64,000 nt of DNA, taken from the NCBI RefSeq assembly GCF_902652985.1, contig NC_047023.1:21204001-21268000 (forward strand). The letters are read 5' to 3'. The notes beneath the pieces were generated by a model. It was not told where the DNA came from, made no database searches, and saw only the letters and a list, made by a program, of their open reading frames with translations. The stretch is from Pecten maximus. Lineage: Eukaryota. A program made the position numbers and the translations under genes. Below, piece after piece: positions 12,943 through 62,843 of this stretch; positions within the stretch are counted from its first letter, which is position 1; every line of letters starts with the position of its first letter.

Positions 12943-13072
12943 ACAGGGCCTATACAGAACTAAACAGGGCCTATACAGGACTACACACGACCTATACAGG
13001 ACTACACAAGGCCTATACAGGACTACACACTGCCTATACAGGTATACACACGACCTATACAGGACTACACAA
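12943..13072. repeat. 21-bp minisatellite, left part (split by CACTG element)
   Basis: aggactacacacggcctatac units. Confidence 0.9.
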
Positions 13073-16000
13073 CACTGGTAACTGTAAAAGTCTGAATTTT
13101 GGCGAAAAATCTGAGTTTTAAAATACATATCTGAATTTCAGCCGAAAAGTCTTAGTTTTTCAGATATACATTTTATATTCTGATAAGTTGGGGGAAACTC
13201 AGATAAGTATTATGAAATTCCGATTTGCATGCTGGAATTCAGATATGTTGGGTAAAATTCAGATGTTTTCTTATTTGTGCCCTCGGGCACCCCTTCTTGC
13301 CGGCGAGAGCAGCACGGGGTTTCACACCTCCCGCGGAGCCGGGTGTTCATGGTCCTCCGGCACCAGCTTACCTTTACATGTGCTGTATAAATCATCCGCG
13401 CCTATCCTACATCGGTCGCTGTAAACTTCAACATTACGGCCGGTAAAGTGTTTTATTTGTGATTGTCTTCGTCTGTTTTTAGTGTAATGACCAGTGTCGT
13501 TGTTCCGTGTGTTGCGTGTGTTTGATACTTTTCTACCTCCGATAAGAAAAGATCTGACTGGTGCAGTGATGCAATCGGACCGATGACGTTTTGTACAAGG
13601 GCATATCACAATCGACAACCAATATCTCTTATTTCCAATTGGTATCTAAGCTTAATTAAAATGATATTCTCAATAAATCTGTTCACGTGTTGTGATCTGT
13701 TGAAACAGTCGGTTCGTAACGTAAGTAGCCGCCCATATGTACAGTACTGTGCAGTGCGTAATTAATAAAAATCGTGTGTTGATACCGATATTCACACTGT
13801 TATCGACCTAATATTAACTATATATGCGCTGGTTAGCATACATTTAACGTAAAAAACGGACCCAATCCCACATTGTATCCTTATTTTTGTGTGTATTTTT
13901 CACCCGTTGCTTGTTGTCACATGACTAGTTATACGTCTGGCCGAACACAGCGCCAGCAGGCGGTCTATTTTAAGACCGATCAAAAGGCATACTTACGCAG
14001 TGTGTCGCCGTAAGTGTCGTGTTCTCTTTGACATTTTCATAATTGTCTTAGGGAGCAGGTTCGTTATATCATAATTGTGTTTACGTTAATATAACACTAT
14101 TGCCATTTTCTTGTTTCAGGTGTCCGAGAACTGAAAACATCAAACCAACTTTCTTACCAGTTGCCTTTCCTGTATCTAGCCCTGGCGATTCTGACTATCT
14201 TTGTTCAGTTCAAACACACTCTTAGAATTTGATCATTTTTGAATAATTTGATATGTGCATCGTGTAAAATTTTGACAAATTTCTTGATATACTGGGACGT
14301 ATATTCTAAATAAATGGTATACGTAAATATTATACCGACACATATAATGTATCATGCTAATTTTCTGAATAGTACTTGCATGTGTATCGTTTATCGTAAT
14401 GTTAATACTTTTGTGAAATGTAACAGGACGGGATATATTGTTCATCAGGATAACTTTCTATTAATAATGGGCCGTATTTTACCATATTGGGTCACATTTT
14501 GATAATTCATTAAGCAGAACAGGACGAAGCGCACAGCGTACGACTATTAGATTATTTCTCTTATATATTTATATAACAGGATATGTGTTGCATAACATTT
14601 TGACAATTTTCTTCATATACAACAATTTGATAAAGCTCCACATGCTAACGATGTAATGTAATTGGTCTCTAGGCCAATATAAAGGAATGAAAACCAAAAG
14701 ATTATTTTATGTAATGATTCGTCGATGCACAGGACTTAGAATATGCCGGTCAATTTGACAACTTCGTTAAAGCTGAAATAAATGCATCTTCCAAATCCGA
14801 AAATAATTAAGGAACGACTTAACCAAATGTTGGTATTTTTTTGTGAGTAGAGTAAACCACATCTGTATAGATTTACGGATACGAGTCGGAATGGGAACGT
14901 GTCGTCTGATAAATTAGTCGTATGGGATTTGAATATACAATAGGTTTTTGAATGTCTTTATTTATCACCGTTAGTTGTTACGTCAGTTGTTCCACGGACT
15001 TTTGATTAGATACGTGTCCGTAATAGAACATAAAACATTAGAAACACAAATTAACTTACCGAACTTGTTGAATTATTATAGTGTTCCATTTTGCAAGTAT
15101 TATATGATCGATGTCGCAAATGTCCACTTTTTTATTAGTGTGAAGGGCTTTCGTCGTAGGGGCTAATGTCCCGGGGGCTAATGTCAAGTGCGGGCTTTTG
15201 TCCGTACCCCGTTTGAGTACATAGCAGGGAGCGGTAAAACGGCTGTAAAACGTCAACATTGAATTGTCTGATATATGTGAAAATATCCCGTTTCACAAAT
15301 GATGTAAAACTAACAGAAATATGTTATTTTCGTGGTTATATAAATAACTTGCTGCAGTTACGAAAGCGCCAACGCTATCAAAAATTACATTTACATCAGG
15401 TCAGAAAAGAATGTCTACCGGACGTACCTGACACCTGCACATGGAAAAGAAAAGGTTAGAATTATTACTTCAATGCATGTGCTCATGTGTACACATACTT
15501 TTTAACATGTAATTACATAATCATAAATACATGAAACTTTGATGTAATGAATATAAAAATACACTCTCCAATCATCGTTGTTTATCAGCCGTTCCACGGT
15601 TGAACCTGTATATATATGATTTTGTGAATTATGTTAAATAATATGTCTGTACTCTAAACTGATGAGCTAATTCGCTCAAAGTCCTAAAGAACTTGAACTG
15701 GATGTACCTGACACCTGCACATGGCTAATGTGGCCACCCGTGGATAGCGCTTTGACAGGTAGGTAGAGTACCTTTCTAAAGGACGCCTCAAGTCCGTTTG
15801 ATCTGATTCGAGTACAGGTAAGGGACATAGCTTGGAGCAATCAGATAATCAAGATGCTTATTGATTAAAACAGCAGTTGTTATTGATGATACGCAGGTGA
15901 GTTAAGCAGCTCGATATCAGCATCTCGTTTTCTTCTTATGTAACATTGATCAAAATATATAATCCACACATGCATATACATGACCCCTCCCCGGGTCCTA

Positions 16001-19000
16001 GATTTCGTTTGTCGATAATTAACAGTCGATTCAATTTACGTTAAAACGTACTATTTTCAGTCAGGAGTATGGAATTTGCCACCCGACATTGTCACTTCTA
16101 ACCGCTGGCCTCAGGTTTGGCCGAGTTTTGTGGGGACTGTGGAGAAAAACAGAAACATTTGCTTCATAGCAAACTTTTTATTTGGCTATTTAGTTATATC
16201 ATTTGTACACCACCCAAGATGTTTTCTAATTAATTACAAATTACAATAGGCGAATTAATAATCGACCGAAGAGTTCATAAACATAAGCAACAATAATGTT
16301 CCGTTGTTTATCTACTAAACTTGTGTAATTATTCCGTGTTTTATGTCTATATGTCATATTTTATAATTTTAATTGTGTCAAGACAGAGACGCGTTATCTG
16401 ATATTCACGTCTCGGGTCCAGGTAAATTCGTGCAAAATACAAGTCTTCATACACGCACTCTTTCTTATTCCATCACTGTCCCTAAAAAAATGAAAGATAA
16501 TACTTAATACTGTTTAATCACTTAACAGTTCGCATTTATCTTAAGTATTTATCTCGGTTAAATACTTACTGTAGATTATCGTAACGAATGTTTGATCAAA
16601 GTATTACAATGGGTCCTTGCTATGGGAATCCACGATACATCCTTAATTTGTACCGGTTTGCATATCGGTCGTTAATCCATAATTCGTTTTACCAATTTTG
16701 CGAACTTTATTGTTAAGGTGAGGAGTTTTCATAAGCAAAACGTTCATGTACTAGATCATCGTTTCAAATATGGTGTGGTCACTGCCCTAGTCAGTTACAA
16801 TACACAACCTCTGCTAGTCCAGATGACACTGATTACAGGTCAATTATCTTGTTCACTGGACCGTTGAGAAGTCGGCGTGCCATCGACAATGTCGCGGTGT
16901 CGAGTTCTACAATAATATAAATATAGGGACAATTGTATAGGCAGGAACTCATCACACACCCATGACATATGAATGCATATTTAAACAAATTTCAAGACCA
17001 TGAGCTGTGACAAGACTACTATATTCTGTATGTATCCTGGAATCCTTCATACTGTGTTGCTTTTGGAAATGAATTGAATTACGTAATATCCTATCTCGAA
17101 GGTAAAATACAGAAGAGTCTTTGTTGAGCTACGGGGAGAAATGGGTACTTGCTGTGGCGACATCCCGTAGGGAATGGAGACCCATATTTTATCGACTAAA
17201 TCAGTATCCCAGGGTTAAGATGAAATGTTCGTTCATGTATTGTATGAATAAAAAGATAATCTACACGTAACGTTTCGGATTTTATTAGAAGATTTGATAT
17301 CGGTAAAATGATTCCGGTTATGATTTTATGAGTTTAACTTTATGAGGGTCGGGAGTAAAACACGTAAAATGAAAGCAAAATGACGCTTATAAATCCAGAT
17401 ACATTTAGAAAATTATATAAAAAAAAAACGTTATACAATTTATACGTCCCATTCTATTTAGAAAATTATAAAAAAAAAAACGTTACACAATGTATACGTC
17501 CCATTCTATTTAGAAAATTATCGAAATGTTGCAGGATATATCAAGAACAAAATCTACATGGCACACCATTTACGTCTGTCCAATTATCTTAAGAAAATGA
17601 TCAAATTTTCACCACTCTCTACCCTCGATTATATTAAAAATACAAAAAAAACCAAAAAAAAAACGCCCCGCTATAAATCACGAAGAATTATCAAAATGTT
17701 GCCAATATATATTCGTACCGATACATTAAGAAACTTTGATGCTCGAGTTCTATTCAGAACATCATCAAAATGTTACACGATATATACGTGCGATTCAGAA
17801 AATTATCGAAATATTTTTCCACGATCTAAAATATATATTTAAATGTGTATCTCTGTTGTATTCGGCAAAGTATAAAACATATTGTACGACATACATGTCG
17901 TGAAATGAGTCCTGATATGCCCCATTATTTTATAAGCAGAGACGTATATAAAGGTCACATGTATGCGATATATACGTCTACGTATTTAGGAAATTATTAA
18001 AATGCTACAGGGTAAATATGTCAAATAATGTTAACGGATATAGGTATACAGTATATATCAAAGTCAATAAATAGCAAGCATCGTTCAGGCCAGGCACAAA
18101 GAAGAAACTGCAACTGGTTCGGAATTTGGTCTATTTTTTCTGCAACCGTATTACAGCCATGGGATACCTGAAACAAGAATATAGTAACTGTGTTATATAT
18201 ACGTCAAAACAAATATACGATTAAGTTGTTCACAAAGACTAACATTTTCCAATCTCGCCAAATAATCATTAACAAAACGATGGTTCTGTAAGAAATATAA
18301 AGAACAGCAGCGACACTTACGGTAGGTGATTCTGTTTGTACTGGTAGCTAGCTGGTAGCCCATGACAGACGTACGGCTTTTGATCGGTCCTAAAATAGAC
18401 CGCCTGCTGGCACTGCGTACGGCCAGACGTATGACTATCATGCGACCACAAGCCATCGAAAGTGTGCGAACAATTTATTTGGGTCTGATTTTTCGTCAAG
18501 TGCACATAAATAATGTTTGGTCTATAACAGTGTGAATATCGGTATCAACACACGATTTTTATTAATTACGCACTGCACAGTACTGTACATATGGGCGGCT
18601 ACTTACGTTACGAACCGACTGTTTCAACAGATCACAACACGTGAACAGATTTATTGAGAATATCATTTTAATTAAGCTTAGATACCAATTGGAAATAAGA
18701 GATATTGGTTGTCGATTGTGATATGCCCTTGTACAAAACGTCGTCGGTCCGATTGCATCACCGCACCGTGCAGTCAGATCTTTTGTTATCGGAGGTAGAA
18801 AAGTATCAAACACACGCAACACACGGAATAACGACACTGGTCATTACACTAAAAACAGACGAAGATAATCACAAATTAAAACACTTTACCGGCCGTAATG
18901 TTGAAGTTTACAGCGACCGATGTAGGATAGTCTATATTGGTGACCGATCGAGTCACACGCGGATGATTTATACAGCACAGGTAAAGGTAAGCTGGTGCCG

Positions 19001-19285
19001 GAGGACCATGAACACCCGGCTCCGCGGGAGGTGTGAAACCCCGTGCTGCTCTCGCCGGCAAGAAGGGGTGCCCGAGGGCACAAATAAGAAAACATCTGAA
19101 TTTTACCCAACATATCTGAATTCCAGCATGCAAATCGGAATTTCATAATACTTATCTGAGTTTCCCCCAACTTATCAGAATATAAAATGTATATCTGAAA
19201 AACAAAGACTTTTCGGCTGAAATTCAGATATGTAATTTAAAACTCAGATTTTTCGCCAAAATTCAGACTTTTACAGTTACCAGTG
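13073..19285 (+). mobile_element. Non-autonomous CACTA/CMC-EnSpm-like DNA transposon, copy 1 (6213 bp)
   Basis: CACTG...CAGTG ends; TIRs 13073-13808 and 18519-19285; 3-bp TSD CAA; subterminal ATCTGAATT-like repeats; no transposase ORF seen. Confidence 0.9.
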
Positions 19286-19900
19286 CAAGGCCTATACAGG
19301 ACTACAGACGGCCTATACAGGACTACACACGGCCTATACAGGACTACACACGACCTATACAGGACTACACAAGGCCTATACAGGACTACACACGGCCTAT
19401 ACAGGTCTACACACGGCCTATACAGGACTACACTAGGCCTATACAGGACTACACACGACCTATACAGGACTACACACGGCCTATACAGGACTACACACGG
19501 CCTATACAGGACTACACACGGCCTATACACAGCCTATACAGGACTACACACGACCTATACAGGACTACACACGTCCTATACAGGACTACACACGACCTAT
19601 ACAGGACTACACACGACATATACAGGACTACATACAGGGCCTACCGGGGTATATAGGAATACACTGGGACAATACTAGTACTGGGCCCATACAGGACTGC
19701 ACATGTACACGTTCTGCCAATAAAGGACTATACACTATATATATACCAGTACAGGACTACATACAGGGCTACACACTACCAATACAGGACTACACACAGG
19801 GCCTTCCGGGGTATAGAGGACTACACTGGGACAATATATACAAGTACAACACATGCCCATACAGGACTACACACACTACCAGTACAGGCCTACAGACGAC
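19286..19900. repeat. 21-bp minisatellite, right part
   Basis: Same unit resumes in register after the TSD. Confidence 0.9.
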
Positions 19901-32780: not shown

Positions 32781-33733
32781 ATGGACAAAATCGGTGAAAG
32801 AGCAGTGATCAAATATTTGCATAAAAAGGTTTAACACCTAAGGATATCCATAATGATATGGTAGCAACACTAGGGAAAGATATTATGCCCCTTCATATGC
32901 TACAGTGAAAAGGTGGGTATCAGAATTGAAGCGCGGCCGACAGAGCCTTGAGGATGATCCCCGTCCTGGAAGGCCTGTCAATGTTGCAACCCCATAAATG
33001 GTCAAAAAAGTCCATGACATTGTTATGACTGACAGACAAGTCACAGAAAGATATATATAGCCAGTAGACATGGCATTTCACAGGAAAGAATACATTCCAT
33101 TCTGACCGAGGATCTTACAATGAGAAAGCTGTCGGCCGGATGGGTACCAAGACCAAACAACAATCGAAACAATGGAAGCACCCTGGCTCTCCCCGTAAAA
33201 GAAGGCAAAGCCTGTTCCATCAACTGGGAAGGTTATGACCTCGTTTTTCCGGATGCAGATGGTATTCTGCTGATAGATTATCTCCGACAGGGACAAACAA
33301 TCAATGTCACATACTATGCTTCATATCCGAGGCAGTTACGGGAAAATATTAAACTTAAGCGCCACGGAAAGCTCACTAAAGGTTTGTTATTCCATCAGGA
33401 CAATGTTCCTGTTCACAAGTATGTCATTGCCATGGCTGCCATTCACGATTATGGCTTTAAATTGATTAAGCATCCGCCTCATTCACCTGATCTCGCTAAA
33501 ATGAAAACAACTATTTCAGGCACCCACTTTCAGTTTTGGGATGACGTCATACATGCAGTGGAGGACTTTCTGAACAGCCAAGAAGGGAGTTCCTTACAAG
33601 TGGCATTGAGGCCCTTAAACACCGCTGGCAAAAGTGTAGATACTGAAGGGGATTATGTTGAAAAATAATACAATATGTCCGACAAAATTCAAATCCTTCA
33701 ATATGAGACTCACAACATATCAGTCAGCCATCG
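32781..33733 (+). pseudogene. Decayed mariner transposase with right TIR
   Basis: MDKIGERAVIKYLHKK...VKRWVSELKRGRQSLEDDPRPGRP, RKLSAGWVPR, FHQDNVPVH, HPPHSPDLA; frameshifts, stop and deletions; ends ...TCAGTCAGCCATCG|TA; left TIR not seen. Confidence 0.9.
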
Positions 33734-36267: not shown

Positions 36268-37437
36268 TTAAAAGTTGGAAGCGAATTCATCGGATGTGAC
36301 GCTCTGGAAATACGTATTAGCGGTTTCAGTAACTGCGACATGTCTAACAGGCTTGCGTCTTTGCAGGTGTCGAGTAGTCGGTTTCTCCATTCCGAGACAG
36401 GCCAGACACTTGAAGGGATTTCCGGCAAGCGCGTGATATATCGGGAAAGTGAAGATACTGTAAATCAGGGGGAACATGGTAAACATTGCTAAGAAGGTGT
36501 TCCACGCGTCAGGACTCATTTCGGACGTGTTTTTCACGCCTATCGTTGGTAGAGTTGACGGCGCTGTGGTCAGATGGGTGATAAATTCAAAAAGTCGCTG
36601 TGGGACCAATAAAAGCACGTGCATGCACACGGCAGCCGCTAGACATTTGAAGAAGTACCTGTCCAGACGTTTCCTGACATCAATCTCTCCGTCACCATCA
36701 TGTTTGTCCTCCGGTGTTCGACGAAAATAACTCATAATTCCACTGTCGAATCTGGTCCACGCACCAAGAAAATGTGGTATTAAGCTGAGAAAGGCACATA
36801 TTGCCGGAAGAACTGTTCCAAAACAGAATTCAATTATCTCAAGATGGCTAGTGTGCCCAGCACCGATGTGACAGTAGCTGGTGGTGATAATATCCGAATT
36901 CCGACGGACTCTCCCGTTCACTACTTCCGTGAAGACCAGATACGGGATAACAAATAATGAAGACACGAGGACTATCACCCAGAACCCTATAACTACGGGT
37001 AAGGATCTACGGGTATCGGACTTCCCCGACACAAACAGTAACTTTGAGCACGTGCAGATCAAAACTAAAATATAGTTCCCAGATACAAACGAAGCATGTT
37101 TCCACCACCACATAAACTTACACGTGCCGGCGCTTTGGTGTACCCAGCCGCAGTGGCCGAGCTGGTGTAGAAATATGACTAGCGTGTTTACAAGACAGTA
37201 ACAAAGCTGGATTACTGCAAAACCGGAAATGATGTCAACGTAGTTCTTCCCAAGCTTTTTCCTCTGTAAAATGTTGGAGACGACGAGAATACCAACACTT
37301 ATAACAGCCAAACAGGCCAGTCCTATGAACGCGTAGATATAGCTGAGCACATTCGTGGAACACTTGCTAACGTCAAACAACGTATCATAGACGTCAGTGG
37401 TGTTGGTGTTCACCTTGGATGCGTCCATACTGGCCAT
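36268..37437 (-). CDS. Atypical rhodopsin-like 7TM receptor (orphan GPCR), 389 aa, single coding exon
   Basis: First ATG (MASMDASKVNTNTT) follows an upstream in-frame TGA. Seven hydrophobic segments, N-terminal NTT sequon, ECL1 W..C(K), TM4 W...P, ECL2 Cys, TM5 LP, TM6 P, TM7 FPIY. Confidence 0.85.
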   Translation of the reverse strand: MASMDASKVNTNTTDVYDTLFDVSKCSTNVLSYIYAFIGLACLAVISVGILVVSNILQRKKLGKNYVDIISGFAVIQLCYCLVNTLVIFLHQLGHCGWVHQSAGTCKFMWWWKHASFVSGNYILVLICTCSKLLFVSGKSDTRRSLPVVIGFWVIVLVSSLFVIPYLVFTEVVNGRVRRNSDIITTSYCHIGAGHTSHLEIIEFCFGTVLPAICAFLSLIPHFLGAWTRFDSGIMSYFRRTPEDKHDGDGEIDVRKRLDRYFFKCLAAAVCMHVLLLVPQRLFEFITHLTTAPSTLPTIGVKNTSEMSPDAWNTFLAMFTMFPLIYSIFTFPIYHALAGNPFKCLACLGMEKPTTRHLQRRKPVRHVAVTETANTYFQSVTSDEFASNF

Positions 37438-38064
37438 TCCGACAGGTGATAAGATGATTACAGATGGCGAACAAATGGCGGTTTTTTTTACACTCGGGTA
37501 CAAGGACGTCAGTGGATCACCTCACGGAACACGGGTGATCCCGCTGTTCCTGACGTTCCCGGACCAAGGGCGTATAATCGACTTCTTGTTTTCAGGTGAA
37601 CATCATAGACTTATTCTGCAAAGAAAAAACACATATTGACTGTAAAATATTACTATTTGTATACATGTGTGCTTTTGATGTGGTATTTTTTGCCTTCCCA
37701 TAGTCAATATATGCTACCAAGGAGGAATATTCAAACTGTACAAGTAAATACATAATGCACACACATAATTGAAATATGAATTGACCTTACCTTGATTACA
37801 CTGGGTTTGGTCCTTTTGGTGTCGTTATAAATGTCCACAGACTTCGCTACTTACTCTAGATTACCCTATAACATACTTATTGATGTTTCACAGTTTGGTG
37901 TTATTATTAGTACATGATCCTGATATCTGTCAAAAAAAACCATGTTTTTCTCATAGGTCTCCAGCAGTTTCTTTCAACATCCTGCCGAGTTACCACCCGA
38001 GTGGAATGATTATAGAAACGGTGTCGTATGTTTACAAAGGTACAAAAATACAATGATAATATGA

Positions 38065-46873: not shown

Positions 46874-51937
<5,064 letters not shown>

Positions 51938-55086: not shown

Positions 55087-56045
55087 CTGCAATAAAAAAA
55101 CATACAATCAGTTGACATTCAAAATTACCTCACTTGTGATTACCAAATAATTTTTCAGTATTCTCCCAAGAATATTGATTTGATCCCAAGTGATGGAAAT
55201 AAGCTAATCATAACTGTGGTCATATCTAATTTCTTTGCTTAGTGTAAAAGCTCTTCAGATTTAGAACTCATGTTTGTTGTTGACTATGTGTATGAGTATC
55301 TAAAGTTTGACATATAATCAAATTGCATGCGAGTACATAGGATTTTATTTTCTGGGTTAGATCATTCCATCAACAGCCAGTAGTTCCAAGGTCAGGGTCT
55401 CCATGTAGTAGATGGGCTACCTCATTGACCTCACTGAACAAAGTACATGATGTACAAGAAACCTGTGTGAAGAAGGCAATTTATCCAGATTATTGTCATA
55501 TGTGTTAAATGTTTTGCCCAAGAACACAACCATCTCTATATTTAAAGAGTAATGAGTCTGATTACCTTTGCCTATTTAAAGATCATAGTCATGATAGTGG
55601 GTCACGTGCTAGGCAAAGAAAAGATATAAAATACAGCAAAAAGGAACATTACAGAGTATGGAAGTTAGAAGAGTTTGTGTAGGGACAGTTTGAAGCAGTA
55701 AGAAGATGAAGTTATAAATGGAGACAGACGATTCCATGGCCAGTTGACTATGATTTGAGGGGGAAAATGATTGTACCAGTGAGTTGTGTTCTACATGAGA
55801 GCGTTTGTTATGGCTCTCTGGTGTGGGTATCTTGTGTGGCAGGATGGAGAAATGTGTTGATCTTTTCTCACATTTGACTTTGTCAATTTGTCAAATATAC
55901 AAGGTAATTTTGTGAAGAATTTTCAGATGCATAACTCTCCTGTTGCATTTCCAGTTAAGATGTTGAAGCATGGCAGCAACATGGAAGATGTTTCTAAATT
56001 TGTAAAATTACCTAAGCTGCATCCTCATGAATACCGAAGCTGTAT

Positions 56046-59000
56046 CACTGGTAACTGTAAAAGTCTGAATTTTGGCGAAAAATCTGAGTTTTAAATTACA
56101 TATCTGAATTTCAGCCGAAAAGTCTTTGTTTTTCAGATATACATTTTATATTCTGATAAGTTGGGGGAAACTCAGATAAGTATTATGAAATTCCGATTTG
56201 CATGCTGGAATTCAGATATGTTGGGTAAAATTCAGATGTTTTCTTATTTGTGCCCTCGGGCACCCCTTCTTGCCGGCGAGAGCAGCACGGGGTTTCACAC
56301 CTCCCGCGGAGCCGGGTGTTCATGGTCCTCCGGCACCAGCTTACCTTTACCTGTGCTGTATAAATCATCCGCGTGTGACTCGATCGGTCACCAATATAGA
56401 CTATCCTACATCGGTCGCTGTAAACTTCAACATTACGGCCGGTAAAGTGTTTTAATTTGTGATTATCTTCGTCTGTTTTTAGTGTAATGACCAGTGTCGT
56501 TATTCCGTGTGTTGCGTGTGTTTGATACTTTTCTACCTCCGATAACAAAAGATCTGACTGCACGGTGCGGTGATGCAATCGGACCGACGACGTTTTGTAC
56601 AAGGGCATATCACAATCGACAACCAATATCTCTTATTTCCAATTGGTATCTAAGCTTAATTAAAATGATATTCTCAATAAATCTGTTCACGTGTTGTGAT
56701 CTGTTGAAACAGTCGGTTCGTAACGTAAGTAGCCGCCCATATGTACAGTACTGTGCAGTGCGTAATTAATAAAAATCGTGTGTTGATACCGATATTCACA
56801 CTGTTATAGACCAAACATTATTTATGTGCACTTGACGAAAAATCAGACCCAAATAAATTGTTCGCACACTTTCGATGGCTTGTGGTCGCATGATAGTCAT
56901 ACGTCTGGCCGTACGCAGTGCCAGCAGGCGGTCTATTTTAGGACCGATCAAAAGCCGTACGTCTGTCATGGGCTACCAGCTAGCTACCAGTACAAACAGA
57001 ATCACCTACCGTAAGTGTCGCTGCTGTTCTTTATATTTCTTACAGAACCATCGTTTTGTTAATGATTATTTGGCGAGATTGGAAAATGTTAGTCTTTGTG
57101 AACAACTTAATCGTATATTTGTTTTGACGTATATATAACACAGTTACTATATTCTTGTTTCAGGTATCCCATGGCTGTAATACGGTTGCAGAAAAAATAG
57201 ACCAAATTCCGAACCAGTTGCAGTTTCTTCTTTGTGCCTGGCCTGAACGATGCTTGCTATTTATTGACTTTGATATATACTGTATACCTATATCCGTTAA
57301 CATTATTTGACATATTTACCCTGTAGCATTTTAATAATTTCCTAAATACGTAGACGTATATATCGCATACATGTGACCTTTATATACGTCTCTGCTTATA
57401 AAATAATGGGGCATATCAGGACTCATTTCACGACATGTATGTCGTACAATATGTTTTATACTTTGCCGAATACAACAGAGATACACATTTAAATATATAT
57501 TTTAGATCGTGGAAAAATATTTCGATAATTTTCTGAATCGCACGTATATATCGTGTAACATTTTGATGATGTTCTGAATAGAACTCGAGCATCAAAGTTT
57601 CTTAATGTATCGGTACGAATATATATTGGCAACATTTTGATAATTCTTCGTGATTTATAGCGGGGCGTTTTTGTTTTTTTTGTTTTTTGTTTTTGTATTT
57701 TTAATATAATCGAGGGTAGAGAGTGGTGAAAATTTGATCATTTTCTTAAGATAATTGGACAGACGTAAATGGTGTGCCATGTAGATTTTGTTCTTGATAT
57801 ATCCTGCAACATTTCGATAATTTTCTAAATAGAATGGGACGTATACATTGTGTAACGTTTTTTTTTTTTTTATAATTTTCTAAATAGAATGGGACGTATA
57901 AATTGTATAACGTTTTTTTTTTATATAATTTTCTAAATGTATCTGGATTTATAAGCGTCATTTTGCTTTCATTTTACGTGTTTTACTCCCGACCCTCATA
58001 AAGTTAAACTCATAAAATCATAACCGGAATCATTTTACCGATATCAAATCTTCTAATAAAATCCGAAACGTTACGTGTAGATTATCTTTTTATTCATACA
58101 ATACATGAACGAACATTTCATCTTAACCCTGGGATACTGATTTAGTCGATAAAATATGGGTCTCCATTCCCTACGGGATGTCGCCACAGCAAGTACCCAT
58201 TTCTCCCCGTAGCTCAACAAAGACTCTTCTGTATTTTACCTTCGAGATAGGATATTACGTAATTCAATTCATTTCCAAAAGCAACACAGTATGAAGGATT
58301 CCAGGATACATACAGAATATAGTAGTCTTGTCACAGCTCATGGTCTTGAAATTTGTTTAAATATGCATTCATATGTCATGGGTGTGTGATGAGTTCCTGC
58401 CTATACAATTGTCCCTATATTTATATTATTGTAGAACTCGACACCGCGACATTGTCGATGGCACGCCGACTTCTCAACGGTCCAGTGAACAAGATAATTG
58501 ACCTGTAATCAGTGTCATCTGGACTAGCAGAGGTTGTGTATTGTAACTGACTAGGGCAGTGACCACACCATATTTGAAACGATGATCTAGTACATGAACG
58601 TTTTGCTTATGAAAACTCCTCACCTTAACAATAAAGTTCGCAAAATTGGTAAAACGAATTATGGATTAACGACCGATATGCAAACCGGTACAAATTAAGG
58701 ATGTATCGTGGATTCCCATAGCAAGGACCCATTGTAATACTTTGATCAAACATTCGTTACGATAATCTACAGTAAGTATTTAACCGAGATAAATACTTAA
58801 GATAAATGCGAACTGTTAAGTGATTAAACAGTATTAAGTATTATCTTTCATTTTTTTAGGGACAGTGATGGAATAAGAAAGAGTGCGTGTATGAAGACTT
58901 GTATTTTGCACGAATTTACCTGGACCCGAGACGTGAATATCAGATAACGCGTCTCTGTCTTGACACAATTAAAATTATAAAATATGACATATAGACATAA

Positions 59001-62000
59001 AACACGGAATAATTACACAAGTTTAGTAGATAAACAACGGAACATTATTGTTGCTTATGTTTATGAACTCTTCGGTCGATTATTAATTCGCCTATTGTAA
59101 TTTGTAATTAATTAGAAAACATCTTGGGTGGTGTACAAATGATATAACTAAATAGCCAAATAAAAAGTTTGCTATGAAGCAAATGTTTCTGTTTTTCTCC
59201 ACAGTCCCCACAAAACTCGGCCAAACCTGAGGCCAGCGGTTAGAAGTGACAATGTCGGGTGGCAAATTCCATACTCCTGACTGAAAATAGTACGTTTTAA
59301 CGTAAATTGAATCGACTGTTAATTATCGACAAACGAAATCTAGGACCCGGGGAGGGGTCATGTATATGCATGTGTGGATTATATATTTTGATCAATGTTA
59401 CATAAGAAGAAAACGAGATGCTGATATCGAGCTGCTTAACTCACCTGCGTATCATCAATAACAACTGCTGTTTTAATCAATAAGCATCTTGATTATCTGA
59501 TTGCTCCAAGCTATGTCCCTTACCTGTACTCGAATCAGATCAAACGGACTTGAGGCGTCCTTTAGAAAGGTACTCTACCTACCTGTCAAAGCGCTATCCA
59601 CGGGTGGCCACATTAGCCATGTGCAGGTGTCAGGTACATCCAGTTCAAGTTCTTTAGGACTTTGAGCGAATTAGCTCATCAGTTTAGAGTACAGACATAT
59701 TATTTAACATAATTCACAAAATCATATATATACAGGTTCAACCGTGGAACGGCTGATAAACAACGATGATTGGAGAGTGTATTTTTATATTCATTACATC
59801 AAAGTTTCATGTATTTATGATTATGTAATTACATGTTAAAAAGTATGTGTACACATGAGCACATGCATTGAAGTAATAATTCTAACCTTTTCTTTTCCAT
59901 GTGCAGGTGTCAGGTACGTCCGGTAGACATTCTTTTCTGACCTGATGTAAATGTAATTTTTGATAGCGTTGGCGCTTTCGTAACTGCAGCAAGTTATTTA
60001 TATAACCACGAAAATAACATATTTCTGTTAGTTTTACATCATTTGTGAAACGGGATATTTTCACATATATCAGACAATTCAATGTTGACGTTTTACAGCC
60101 GTTTTACCGCTCCCTGCTATGTACTCAAACGGGGTACGGACAAAAGCCCGCACTTGACATTAGCCCCCGGGACATTAGCCCCTACGACGAAAGCCCTTCA
60201 CACTAATAAAAAAGTGGACATTTGCGACATCGATCATATAATACTTGCAAAATGGAACACTATAATAATTCAACAAGTTCGGTAAGTTAATTTGTGTTTC
60301 TAATGTTTTATGTTCTATTACGGACACGTATCTAATCAAAAGTCCGTGGAACAACTGACGTAACAACTAACGGTGATAAATAAAGACATTCAAAAACCTA
60401 TTGTATATTCAAATCCCATACGACTAATTTATCAGACGACACGTTCCCATTCCGACTCGTATCCGTAAATCTATACAGATGTGGTTTACTCTACTCACAA
60501 AAAAATACCAACATTTGGTTAAGTCGTTCCTTAATTATTTTCGGATTTGGAAGATGCATTTATTTCAGCTTTAACGAAGTTGTCAAATTGACCGGCATAT
60601 TCTAAGTCCTGTGCATCGACGAATCATTACATAAAATAATCTTTTGGTTTTCATTCCTTTATATTGGCCTAGAGACCAATTACATTACATCGTTAGCATG
60701 TGGAGCTTTATCAAATTGTTGTATATGAAGAAAATTGTCAAAATGTTATGCAACACATATCCTGTTATATAAATATATAAGAGAAATAATCTAATAGTCG
60801 TACGCTGTGCGCTTCGTCCTGTTCTGCTTAATGAATTATCAAAATGTGACCCAATATGGTAAAATACGGCCCATTATTAATAGAAAGTTATCCTGATGAA
60901 CAATATATCCCGTCCTGTTACATTTCACAAAAGTATTAACATTACGATAAACGATACACATGCAAGTACTATTCAGAAAATTAGCATGATACATTATATG
61001 TGTCGGTATAATATTTACGTATACCATTTATTTAGAATATACGTCCCAGTATATCAAGAAATTTGTCAAAATTTTACACGATGCACATATCAAATTATTC
61101 AAAAATGATCAAATTCTAAGAGTGTGTTTGAACTGAACAAAGATAGTCAGAATCGCCAGGGCTAGATACAGGAAAGGCAACTGGTAAGAAAGTTGGTTTG
61201 ATGTTTTCAGTTCTCGGACACCTGAAACAAGAAAATGGCAATAGTGTTATATTAACGTAAACACAATTATGATATAACGAACCTGCTCCCTAAGACAATT
61301 ATGAAAATGTCAAAGAGAACACGACACTTACGGCGACACACTGCGTAAGTATGCCTTTTGATCGGTCTTAAAATAGACCGCCTGCTGGCGCTGTGTTCGG
61401 CCAGACGTATAACTAGTCATGTGACAACAAGCAACGGGTGAAAAATACACACAAAAATAAGGATACAATGTGGGATTGGGTCCGTTTTTTACGTTAAATG
61501 TATGCTAACCAGCGCATATATAGTTAATATTAGGTCGATAACAGTGTGAATATCGGTATCAACACACGATTTTTATTAATTACGCACTGCACAGTACTGT
61601 ACATATGGGCGGCTACTTACGTTACGAACCGACTGTTTCAACAGATCACAACACGTGAACAGATTTATTGAGAATATCATTTTAATTAAGCTTAGATACC
61701 AATTGGAAATAAGAGATATTGGTTGTCGATTGTGATATGCCCTTGTACAAAACGTCATCGGTCCGATTGCATCACTGCACCAGTCAGATCTTTTCTTATC
61801 GGAGGTAGAAAAGTATCAAACACACGCAACACACGGAACAACGACACTGGTCATTACACTAAAAACAGACGAAGACAATCACAAATAAAACACTTTACCG
61901 GCCGTAATGTTGAAGTTTACAGCGACCGATGTAGGATAGGCGCGGATGATTTATACAGCACATGTAAAGGTAAGCTGGTGCCGGAGGACCATGAACACCC

Positions 62001-62268
62001 GGCTCCGCGGGAGGTGTGAAACCCCGTGCTGCTCTCGCCGGCAAGAAGGGGTGCCCGAGGGCACAAATAAGAAAACATCTGAATTTTACCCAACATATCT
62101 GAATTCCAGCATGCAAATCGGAATTTCATAATACTTATCTGAGTTTCCCCCAACTTATCAGAATATAAAATGTATATCTGAAAAACTAAGACTTTTCGGC
62201 TGAAATTCAGATATGTATTTTAAAACTCAGATTTTTCGCCAAAATTCAGACTTTTACAGTTACCAGTG
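56046..62268 (-). mobile_element. Same CACTG element, copy 2 (6223 bp), inverted relative to copy 1
   Basis: Same ends, 3-bp TSD TAT; ORF track mirrors copy 1; visible differences only in A/T runs. Confidence 0.9.
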
Positions 62269-62843
62269 TATCCTAATCAGTACTGACTGATCATGACACA
62301 ACACTGTTTTCAAAAGCTCTATGTATACTCATGCTTAGGCCTAGCGCTCAGCATTTTGGGAGTGGGGGGATTGGTTGGCCTGTTGTCAGTATGATGTGAC
62401 CAGGTGTGTTATTAGTATTTTTTGTCTTAATTATTATTAAGTAATCCTTATGCTTTCATTTCAGCTAACTACATGTACAATATAATGGGATCATACATGT
62501 ACATAAACATATCTGAGTTAAAAAAACAAAATAGAAATCGGTAATAATTGCCAAGACGATTTAGTTTGTTCATAAAAAGTCGGCTCTTAAAAATCGAATT
62601 TTGTAATCAGCACACACATACATTTGTACATCACACATGTGCAACACACGTTTAATGTTTTGCGGACCCAACTTTTTAGTTAAAACGCGATTGCGTACTT
62701 TAAAATACAACGTAAAGCTATCACGACTCGCTGTCTAGAATGTTCATGTTACATTTTAGCACATAAAACAAACAATATTCTACTCTTCAAGGATAATACA
62801 CATGAAGGTCATATATTAGTTATTACACAAGTGCGATACGTAC

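What the first reader, a model, noticed from the sequence alone, without database searches (positions are those of the whole stretch)
13073..19285. Young 6.2-kb CACTG element with unusually long TIRs and no transposase
Seen: CACTG ends and 3-bp TSDs (CAA; TAT in copy 2). The empty site of copy 1 can be reconstructed from the 21-bp minisatellite it splits. Established: CACT(A/G) ends with 2-3-bp TSDs mark the CMC/EnSpm superfamily, whose TIRs are usually short. Here TIRs are ~740-770 bp and decayed inverted homology continues ~1.5-1.9 kb inward, a foldback-like design. Arm-specific differences (for example a 27-bp indel near 13402) are kept in both copies, so it moves as a unit and moved recently (inference).
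Basis: partly seen in the sequence, partly recalled or inferred. Interest (0 to 1): 0.72.

Follow-up and report, generated by a model that had tools for sequence, protein, structure and literature searches.

The report
One transposon core, two end types
A 6.2-kb jumping element with no recognisable gene, present as 22 near-identical copies in a scallop genome, has 750-780-base mirror-image ends that are likely kept alike by copying one end onto the other, and it shares its interior with a second family that has unrelated ends, so one of the two likely changed the enzyme that moves it.

Summary
The element is real: 22 of 22 full copies have CACTG...CAGTG ends and a perfect 3-bp target duplication. 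It has no transposase and is young (median interior divergence 1.8%); the site of window copy 2 looks empty in two other DNA runs. The TIRs are 750-780 bp, and inverted similarity decays to about 1.5/1.9 kb. First, the arms do not keep side-specific differences. In the outer 745 bp, variants sit in both arms of the same copy or subfamily (14 carrier sets), which points to frequent arm-to-arm conversion; the 27-bp indel is private to the window pair. Second, the interior is collinear and 81% identical with that of a second young family, B (about 20 copies), whose ends are unrelated (TA|CAG...CTG|TA, TA duplication). One lineage likely acquired new ends by nested capture. No partner transposase was found: intact CACTA elements here make 3-bp duplications but have other ends. 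The core shows no sign of constraint. TIR conversion and exchange are known within Galileo and Mutator; an exchange between target-site types was not found in my searches. The scan noted a similar pattern earlier in bacterial MITEs. Repbase/Dfam could not be checked.

The parts
13073..19285 (+). Family A element, copy 1 (6,213 bp), non-autonomous, CACTG...CAGTG
   Evidence: 22 full copies in G000
13070..13072 (+). Left 3-bp target duplication CAA
   Evidence: empty site restores the minisatellite
19286..19288 (+). Right 3-bp target duplication CAA
13073..13821 (+). Left TIR, homogenised stratum (749 bp); carries a 27-bp deletion near 13402 private to the two window copies
18506..19285 (-). Right TIR, homogenised stratum (780 bp)
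13091..13263 (.). Subterminal repeats: 8 TCTGA/TCAGA motifs in both orientations in the first 190 bp (mirrored at the right end); likely binding sites for transposition proteins (inference)
   Evidence: 4+4 per 100 bp against mostly 0-1 elsewhere; self-folding z -6.0
13822..13992 (+). Second TIR stratum, no longer homogenised (fixed left/right differences); partner at 18371-18505
14039..18350 (+). Non-coding core shared collinearly with family B (7 blocks, 81% identity over 2,218 ungapped columns); its outer parts keep decayed inverted symmetry
14010..14119 (+). Intron-like stretch (GTAAGT donor, polypyrimidine-CAG acceptor) facing inward; no spliced form seen in RNA contigs
   Evidence: sequence, four-arm alignment, no GT..AG joint
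18168..18320 (-). Mirror intron-like stretch in the right arm, facing inward; donor and acceptor also kept in family B's right arm
   Evidence: no GT..AG joint
14753..14754 (.). Site of a 237-bp deletion that marks the window's subfamily (absent in 5 of 22 copies, present in 17 and in family B)
16029..16379 (+). Piece of an older, unrelated repeat inside family A only (64-71% matches at three loci)
56046..62268 (-). Family A element, copy 2 (6,223 bp), inverted, TSD TAT at 56043-56045 and 62269-62271; site likely empty in two other DNA runs
12943..13072 (+). 21-bp minisatellite, left part, split by copy 1
19289..19632 (+). 21-bp minisatellite, right part

Best explanation
This is a young DNA transposon family with no recognisable gene, CACTG ends and 3-bp target duplications, likely cut and pasted by a CACTA/EnSpm-type transposase encoded elsewhere, whose 750-780-bp inverted ends are likely kept identical by one end being copied onto the other, and whose interior is shared with a second family that likely gained unrelated, TA-targeting ends by nested capture. 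Shown: 22 dispersed copies with TSDs; no transposase inside; variants shared by both arms of a copy in the outer 745 bp with a sharp step behind; collinear homology with family B; B's TA duplication. Inferred: (1) a trans-acting CMC transposase binds the termini and the subterminal TCTGA repeats; (2) a break at or near one end (excision, or nicking of one end only) is repaired with the other arm as template, and the tract runs inward from the terminus until it meets the first block of non-matching sequence, which leaves strata of 99%, about 85% and 62-74% identity; (3) long ago (19% divergence) an A-like foldback element came to lie between the ends of a TA-targeting, likely Tc1/mariner-type element and lost its own ends, giving family B; I put B as the derived form at about 65%; (4) the core is a decayed passenger, likely the remains of promoters and 5' introns that faced inward from both arms, and still gives unspliced RNA.
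For: TSDs in 22 of 22 copies, 10 distinct trinucleotides. No Pfam match in 32 frames, no tblastn match better than E 0.038 to the transposase-length frames. Interior divergence median 1.8%, maximum 2.4% over 231 pairs. Unitigs of runs X1 and X5 run from the flank of copy 2 through 56046 into more than 5 kb that does not fit the element; X6 shows two junctions that match none of the 44 assembly flanks by eye. In this genome the 4 Transposase_21 elements with CACTACTG ends have 3-bp TSDs and the 3 with CCC ends have 2-bp TSDs. Conversion: within-copy left/right mismatch 0.4-0.8% against 0.9-7% between copies at 100-700 bp, reversing to 11-38% against 1-8% beyond 700 bp; 23 of 63 minor alleles lie in both arms of at least one copy, 78 both-arm carriers against a permutation mean of 25 (maximum 50 in 2,000); 14 carrier sets, the multi-copy ones matching clades of the interior tree. 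Shared core: 7 collinear blocks, 2,303 of 6,489 bases of A and 2,341 of 4,609 of B. B: TA on both sides in 12 of 12 copies with both ends, and a single TA at the empty site in two tandem arrays. No match between A's TIR and B's outer parts.
Against: No autonomous element with A's ends: 48 exact 17-mer hits are 44 ends plus 4 solo relics, 59 hits at 2 mismatches add only relics and chance; the intact CACTA elements share only CACT and have other subterminal repeats. Ends were found for 7 of 14 transposase regions examined, so the mobilising enzyme is unidentified. No partner for B was searched for by family. Direction of the end change is not shown: B-type relics at about 75% identity already join B's outer parts to the core (L160, L124). 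No intron is spliced in 4 RNA assemblies. 7 of the 14 both-arm sets are single copies and could be consensus errors.
Confidence: 0.7

Rival explanations
1. The core is a third, older mobile element or a host fragment that was picked up independently by a CACTG shell and by a TA shell.
For: The core has its own decayed inverted symmetry, and left/right divergence (26-38%) is as old as or older than the A/B split (16-25%). Homology to B starts close to where A's TIR ends. Core fragments lie outside full elements (L067, L068).
Against: No shared sharp terminus or TSD where the four arms stop matching. No core-less shell: 22 of 22 A copies have the core, and 12 of 12 two-ended B copies do (for L069 and L070 shown). 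The 28-mer core motif hits 63 places, nearly all in A or B. In A the symmetry is continuous from the terminus into the core.
Confidence: 0.15
2. Family B is itself a CMC-clade element with TA duplications (like fungal ESTA), so the ends changed inside one clade and no boundary between superfamilies was crossed.
For: CMCT lineages share CA..TG termini and ESTA makes TA TSDs (PMC12730594, passages). B has CAG...CTG termini and subterminal repeat arrays.
Against: ESTA was described from fungi in that paper; a fixed TA with a short TIR is the Tc1/mariner rule (PMC10741241, passage). The ends cannot be aligned while the core is 81% identical, so they were replaced, not slowly diverged, whichever enzyme moves B.
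Confidence: 0.2
3. The core is functional cargo: inward-facing promoters make a non-coding or double-stranded RNA that helps the element or its host, and both families are selected to keep it.
For: All full copies of two separately mobilised families keep several kb of it; splice-type signals survive in four arms; the interior is in RNA libraries as contigs of 2.4-2.7 kb.
Against: Longest identical run between A and B is 33 bases, expected 0.3-0.7 times at 81% identity; indels and stops throughout; no Rfam match at the gathering score; large internal deletions are tolerated (237 bp in 5 A copies; 1.6 kb in L122); no silent control was laid for the RNA.
Confidence: 0.1
4. The likeness of the two arms within a copy is an assembly or polishing artefact.
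For: Long inverted repeats can confuse read placement; 7 both-arm sets are single copies.
Against: Seven sets are shared by 2-8 copies at different sites and follow the interior tree; 39 of 63 alleles stay in one arm type; the step at about 770 bp is the same in all copies.
Confidence: 0.05

Closest known systems
CACTA/EnSpm superfamily, CMC group (PMC10741241, PMC4158355, PMC12730594: passages read)
   Same: CACTG...CAGTG termini, 3-bp TSD of varied sequence, subterminal repeats (the last feature recalled, not from a call); intact Transposase_21 elements with CACTA ends and 3-bp TSDs exist in this genome.
   Different: TIR 750-780 bp against 'mostly < 50 bp'; no transposase or second ORF; no partner with the same ends found.
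Chapaev3 group (PMC4079192: passages read)
   Same: CAC...GTG termini, 3-bp TSD, animal host.
   Different: Chapaev3 duplicates TWA between A and T; here TWA is 4 of 22.
Galileo of Drosophila mojavensis (PMC3573991: passages read)
   Same: Long TIRs (up to about 1.2 kb) in non-autonomous copies, TIR extension, conversion proposed, chimeras with an interior from another subfamily.
   Different: P superfamily with 7-bp TSD; TIR length very variable there, uniform here; chimeras there stay within one family.
Maize MuDR/Mu elements (PMC10401008: abstract, outline and passages read)
   Same: Left and right TIRs more alike than TIRs of relatives; conversion from the other arm after a one-ended break proposed; TIRs and interiors evolve separately; TIRs hold promoters for the internal genes.
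   Different: Exchange is between clades of one family moved by one transposase type; here the two shells differ in target duplication (3 bp varied against fixed TA) and the shared interior is non-coding.
Tc1/mariner non-autonomous elements, for family B (PMC10741241: passage read)
   Same: Fixed TA duplication, short TIR (38 bp, 95%).
   Different: 4.6 kb, subterminal arrays, interior shared with a CACTG family; no transposase identified.

Membership tests
CACTA/EnSpm (CMC) | Termini CACTA/CACTG ... TAGTG/CAGTG | tested here: met
   22 of 22 copies; definition in PMC10741241
CACTA/EnSpm (CMC) | 3-bp target site duplication | tested here: met
   22 of 22
CACTA/EnSpm (CMC) | Short TIR (typical, not strict: 'mostly < 50 bp') | tested here: not met
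   749/780 bp; PMC3573991 calls TIR length unreliable for classification
CACTA/EnSpm (CMC) | Subterminal repeats in both orientations (recalled feature) | tested here: met
   8 TCTGA/TCAGA motifs in the first 190 bp
CACTA/EnSpm (CMC) | Mobilised by a Transposase_21-type DDE enzyme (in the element or in a partner with the same ends) | tested here: inconclusive
   None inside; no partner with these ends; ends resolved for 7 of 14 transposase regions, none match. Membership therefore provisional.
Chapaev3 | TWA duplication flanked by A and T | tested here: not met
   4 of 22 TWA; definition in PMC4079192
Chapaev3 | Chapaev-type transposase partner | not testable with these tools
   No Chapaev query on hand; a RAG1 profile rang nowhere, controls included
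Foldback/Galileo-type | Long TIRs around a non-coding middle | tested here: met
Foldback/Galileo-type | Tandem-repeat modules in the TIR and wide variation in TIR length | tested here: not met
   No tandem array in the arms; same step at about 770 bp in all copies; one copy has a duplicated arm (L048)
Foldback/Galileo-type | 7-bp TSD (Galileo) | tested here: not met
   3 bp; 7 bp in PMC3573991
Tc1/mariner (for family B) | Fixed TA duplication | tested here: met
   12 of 12 two-ended copies; single TA at two reconstructed empty sites
Tc1/mariner (for family B) | Short TIR of about 30 bp | tested here: met
   38 bp at 95% counting the TA
Tc1/mariner (for family B) | DDE/D Tc1/mariner transposase partner with the same TIR | not tested
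   No family search was run; no transposase was evident in the printed starts of long frames of the loci fetched around B ends, which were not scanned against Pfam

The most novel reading that the evidence does not exclude
The core is a passenger module that has moved between a CACTA-type and a Tc1/mariner-type transposition system by trading ends, and both active families keep it because inward-facing promoters in its arms make an RNA (hairpin or double-stranded) that helps the element persist.
Probability: 0.1. Interest if true: 0.75.

Novelty: new variant of a known kind. Interest (0 to 1): 0.42.

Why it matters
Non-autonomous DNA transposons are classified by their ends and target duplication. 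Here two recently spread families in one animal genome share descent in the interior but would be filed in different superfamilies, which suggests that a gene-less element can outlive its transposase by taking new ends. The 22 copies also give an unusually clean, countable record of arm-to-arm copying (14 carrier sets within 2.4% divergence, a sharp tract boundary, older strata behind it), a process proposed for Galileo and Mutator that could be tested directly here. Without a function for the core or an identified transposase it remains a good example of known processes, not a new system.

Tried and rejected
Longer copies (7.0-9.8 kb) as autonomous versions: their extra DNA is nested insertions or a duplicated arm, with no long frame. 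Solo A end at L063 as a transposase or cargo gene: the 877-codon frame behind it ends in a BIR domain and is the second exon of an annotated apoptosis-inhibitor gene; the relic lies in its predicted first intron; no paralogue, no Atlas hit, no right end within about 30 kb. Other solo ends (L064, L066, L111-L113, L116): relics of 76-304 bp or one broken copy. Transposase_21 elements as partners: 20 regions fetched, none with A's ends. RAG1 profile search: uninformative, no control rang. Coding in the core: tblastx blocks are full of stops. Conserved-motif argument: the 28-mer identical in 41 loci lies in a run no longer than chance gives. Rfam: 3 weak hits, all far below gathering score. RNA: run X19 has no contig over the outer 700 bp of the TIR, but absence of cover in contigs is no finding, and the other three runs cover it. 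A>G/T>C excess in RNA contigs cannot be told from copy differences. Family-level claim that arm differences are kept: rejected. Rows left out: L048 (rearranged arm) and W2 (twin of W1) in the arm statistics; left arms of L035 and L036 cut at nested insertions; positions 328-362 skipped as one alignment-sensitive event. Literature searches found no description of this family or of a CACTG/TA pair with a shared interior; PMC10294476 and PMC12905397 (passages) added nothing specific; no supplements were read, and the library of PMC10294476 or Repbase may hold these families.
Full report
Observation. Window 13073-19285 begins CACTGGTAACTG and ends CAGTTACCAGTG between two CAA; a second copy lies inverted at 56046-62268 between two TAT. 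The two differ at 11 columns, all in or beside A-tracts. Copy 1 splits a 21-bp minisatellite whose register is restored by removing the element and one CAA. The near-perfect arms are 749 and 780 bp. Inverted similarity above 30 shuffles reaches about 1.5 kb from the left end and 1.9 kb from the right. The longest stop-to-stop frame is 149 codons, and none of 32 frames scanned passes a Pfam cut-off.

Family size and age. The genome (918 Mb; a protein record from it is named Pecten maximus by its source) holds 22 copies with both ends: the 2 in the window and 20 fetched; an interior query finds the same 22, and the exact 17-base end occurs 48 times, 44 in these copies and 4 alone. All 22 have a perfect 3-bp duplication, of 10 distinct trinucleotides, and different flanks. 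Interior divergence over 231 pairs has median 1.8% and maximum 2.4%. Copies of 7.0-9.8 kb owe their size to nested insertions or, in L048, a tandem copy of the left arm. The window's subfamily (5 of 22) lacks a 237-bp piece. In DNA runs X1 and X5 a single unitig covers the flank of copy 2 up to 56046 and goes on for over 5 kb that does not fit the element; I read this as the empty site (inference from record coordinates; the letters were not shown). X4 gave only short flank pieces. X6 shows two junctions that by eye match none of the assembly's flanks. The family is therefore likely polymorphic and recently mobile.

The arms evolve together. For 20 copies (L048 and W2 left out) the left and right arm of one copy differ by 0.4-0.8% at 100-700 bp, while the same arm differs by 0.9-7% between copies; beyond 700 bp this reverses (11-38% against 1-8%). 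The step lies at about 770 bp. In positions 1-745 there is no majority left/right difference; 23 of 63 minor alleles occur in both arms of at least one copy, with 78 both-arm carriers against 25 expected from permutation (maximum 50 in 2,000). They fall into 14 carrier sets; the 7 multi-copy sets match clades of the interior tree, which argues against a polishing artefact. I infer repeated copying of one arm onto the other, starting at the terminus and stopping at the first non-matching block, as proposed for maize Mu after a one-ended break (PMC10401008, passages) and in general terms for Galileo (PMC3573991, passages). The strata behind (about 85% to 920 bp, 62-74% to about 1.25 kb, traces beyond) are then older, abandoned TIR.

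A second family with the same interior. Weak hits of an interior query led to family B, about 20 copies (12 fetched with both ends), typically 4.2-4.6 kb, median divergence 2.1% over 190 pairs. Seven blocks align with A in the same order and direction, covering 2,303 of 6,489 bases of a typical A copy and 2,341 of 4,609 of B at 81% identity. B's ends are CAGACCC...GGGTCTG with a 38-bp TIR and arrays of a short subterminal repeat, with TA on both sides in 12 of 12 two-ended copies; in two copies that sit in tandem arrays the uninterrupted unit has one TA, so TA is the duplication. A's TIR and B's outer 1.25 kb and 0.36 kb do not align. No two-ended shell without the core was found in either family. 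In the shared inner arms, A-right and B-right are 84% alike, A-left and B-left 75%, and left against right 62-74%: the inner arms had begun to decay before A and B split. B-type relics at about 75% identity already join B's outer parts to the core (L160, L124), so the change of ends is old. I favour B as the derived form (about 65%) because A's symmetry runs unbroken from the terminus into the core while B cuts it at unequal points, but this is not shown.

What the core is. It does not code: tblastx blocks are full of stops and indels break frames. It has no Rfam match at gathering score. Both arms hold an inward-facing donor and acceptor (14010-14119 on +, 18320-18168 on -), and the acceptor is kept in all four arms of A and B. 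That recalls MuDR, whose TIRs hold the promoters of its genes. Yet the longest identical run between A and B is what 81% identity predicts, so I see no constraint. The interior is present in RNA libraries: run X19 (RNA on record) has contigs of 2,664 and 2,377 letters across it, and three runs guessed to be RNA also cover it; none of the 7 joints listed is GT..AG. No silent control was laid and contigs give no strand, so transcription is likely but not shown.

The mobilising enzyme. A Transposase_21 search gave 41 matches, many in frames of 700-990 codons (4 confirmed). Of 14 regions extended to 20-30 kb, 7 gave both ends: 4 with CACTACTG ends and 3-bp duplications, 3 with CCC ends and 2-bp duplications. 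So the lineage that makes 3-bp duplications is present and intact-looking, but it shares only CACT with A and has other subterminal repeats. End searches at 0 and 2 mismatches found relics only. Chapaev3 fits the termini but duplicates TWA (PMC4079192, passages), against 4 of 22 here. A works like a CACTA/EnSpm element; its membership is provisional. B works like a Tc1/mariner element (PMC10741241, passage), though a TA-duplicating CMC-clade lineage is known from fungi (PMC12730594, passages).

Novelty and verdict. Gene-less CACTA-type elements, long TIRs and TIR conversion are each known. Eight literature searches found no account of this family or of a CACTG family and a TA family sharing an interior; Repbase and Dfam were not available, and no supplements were read. 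The scan's own notes hold no look-alike sequence but one unchecked note of the same pattern in bacterial MITEs. I rate it a new variant of a known kind, interest 0.42. The bolder reading, a functional RNA passenger that trades transposition systems, is not excluded but has little support (0.1).

Noticed in passing
run X9, record 23 laid on window 13073-13386: A 1,098-letter contig at depth 504 (interior about 10) holds the outer 313 bases of the TIR and runs 785 letters past the element's end: likely a highly expressed host transcript that includes one end of a copy.
   Followed up: no
L063:143-315 (G000:C5:29375842): Old A-type end in the predicted first intron of an annotated 1,503-aa apoptosis-inhibitor gene (BIR, RING) whose N-terminal cysteine-rich stretch has no homologue in the search run.
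   Followed up: yes
L048 (G000:C18:23611165-23618435): Copy with a tandem duplication of its left arm (about bases 35-922), likely a trace of template switching in repair.
   Followed up: yes
L068:5960-7149 and L137 (G000:C8, about 770-777 kb): Broken B copy beside frames that match an integrase core and an A32-type packaging ATPase (Maverick/Polinton-like).
   Followed up: partly
L092/L153, L093/L154, L091, L094: Young CACTA elements of 8.8-11.8 kb with CACTACTG ends and 3-bp TSDs; three have 959-989-codon transposase frames, in L093 the frame is split; L092 and L093 are 99.6% identical.
   Followed up: partly
L096, L100, L101 (ends seen on one side also in L098, L102): Transposase_21/DUF1258-type elements of 12-15 kb with CCC...GGG ends and 2-bp TSDs.
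   Followed up: partly
L031:6365-8349, L035:6199-8037, L032:3839-5966, L034:2513-4796: Two nested element types with internal 145-bp and 155-bp tandem arrays, each inserted twice into family A copies; resemble Helitron-derived satellite-carrying elements (recalled, not tested).
   Followed up: no
L124:385-640 (G000:C1:58084884): The terminal 44 bp or so of an old B copy amplified into a six-unit minisatellite.
   Followed up: no
window 33033-33665: Mariner-type transposase remnant (Transposase_1, E 4.7e-8).
   Followed up: partly
window 46875-51850: 62-bp minisatellite of about 81 copies; many other minisatellites in the window.
   Followed up: no
window 36271-37521 (-): 416-codon open frame between the two copies with no Pfam match.
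   Followed up: partly
run X6 (coded organism B): Holds the element at about 98-99% identity under another organism label; sister species, mixed sample or mislabel cannot be told.
   Followed up: no
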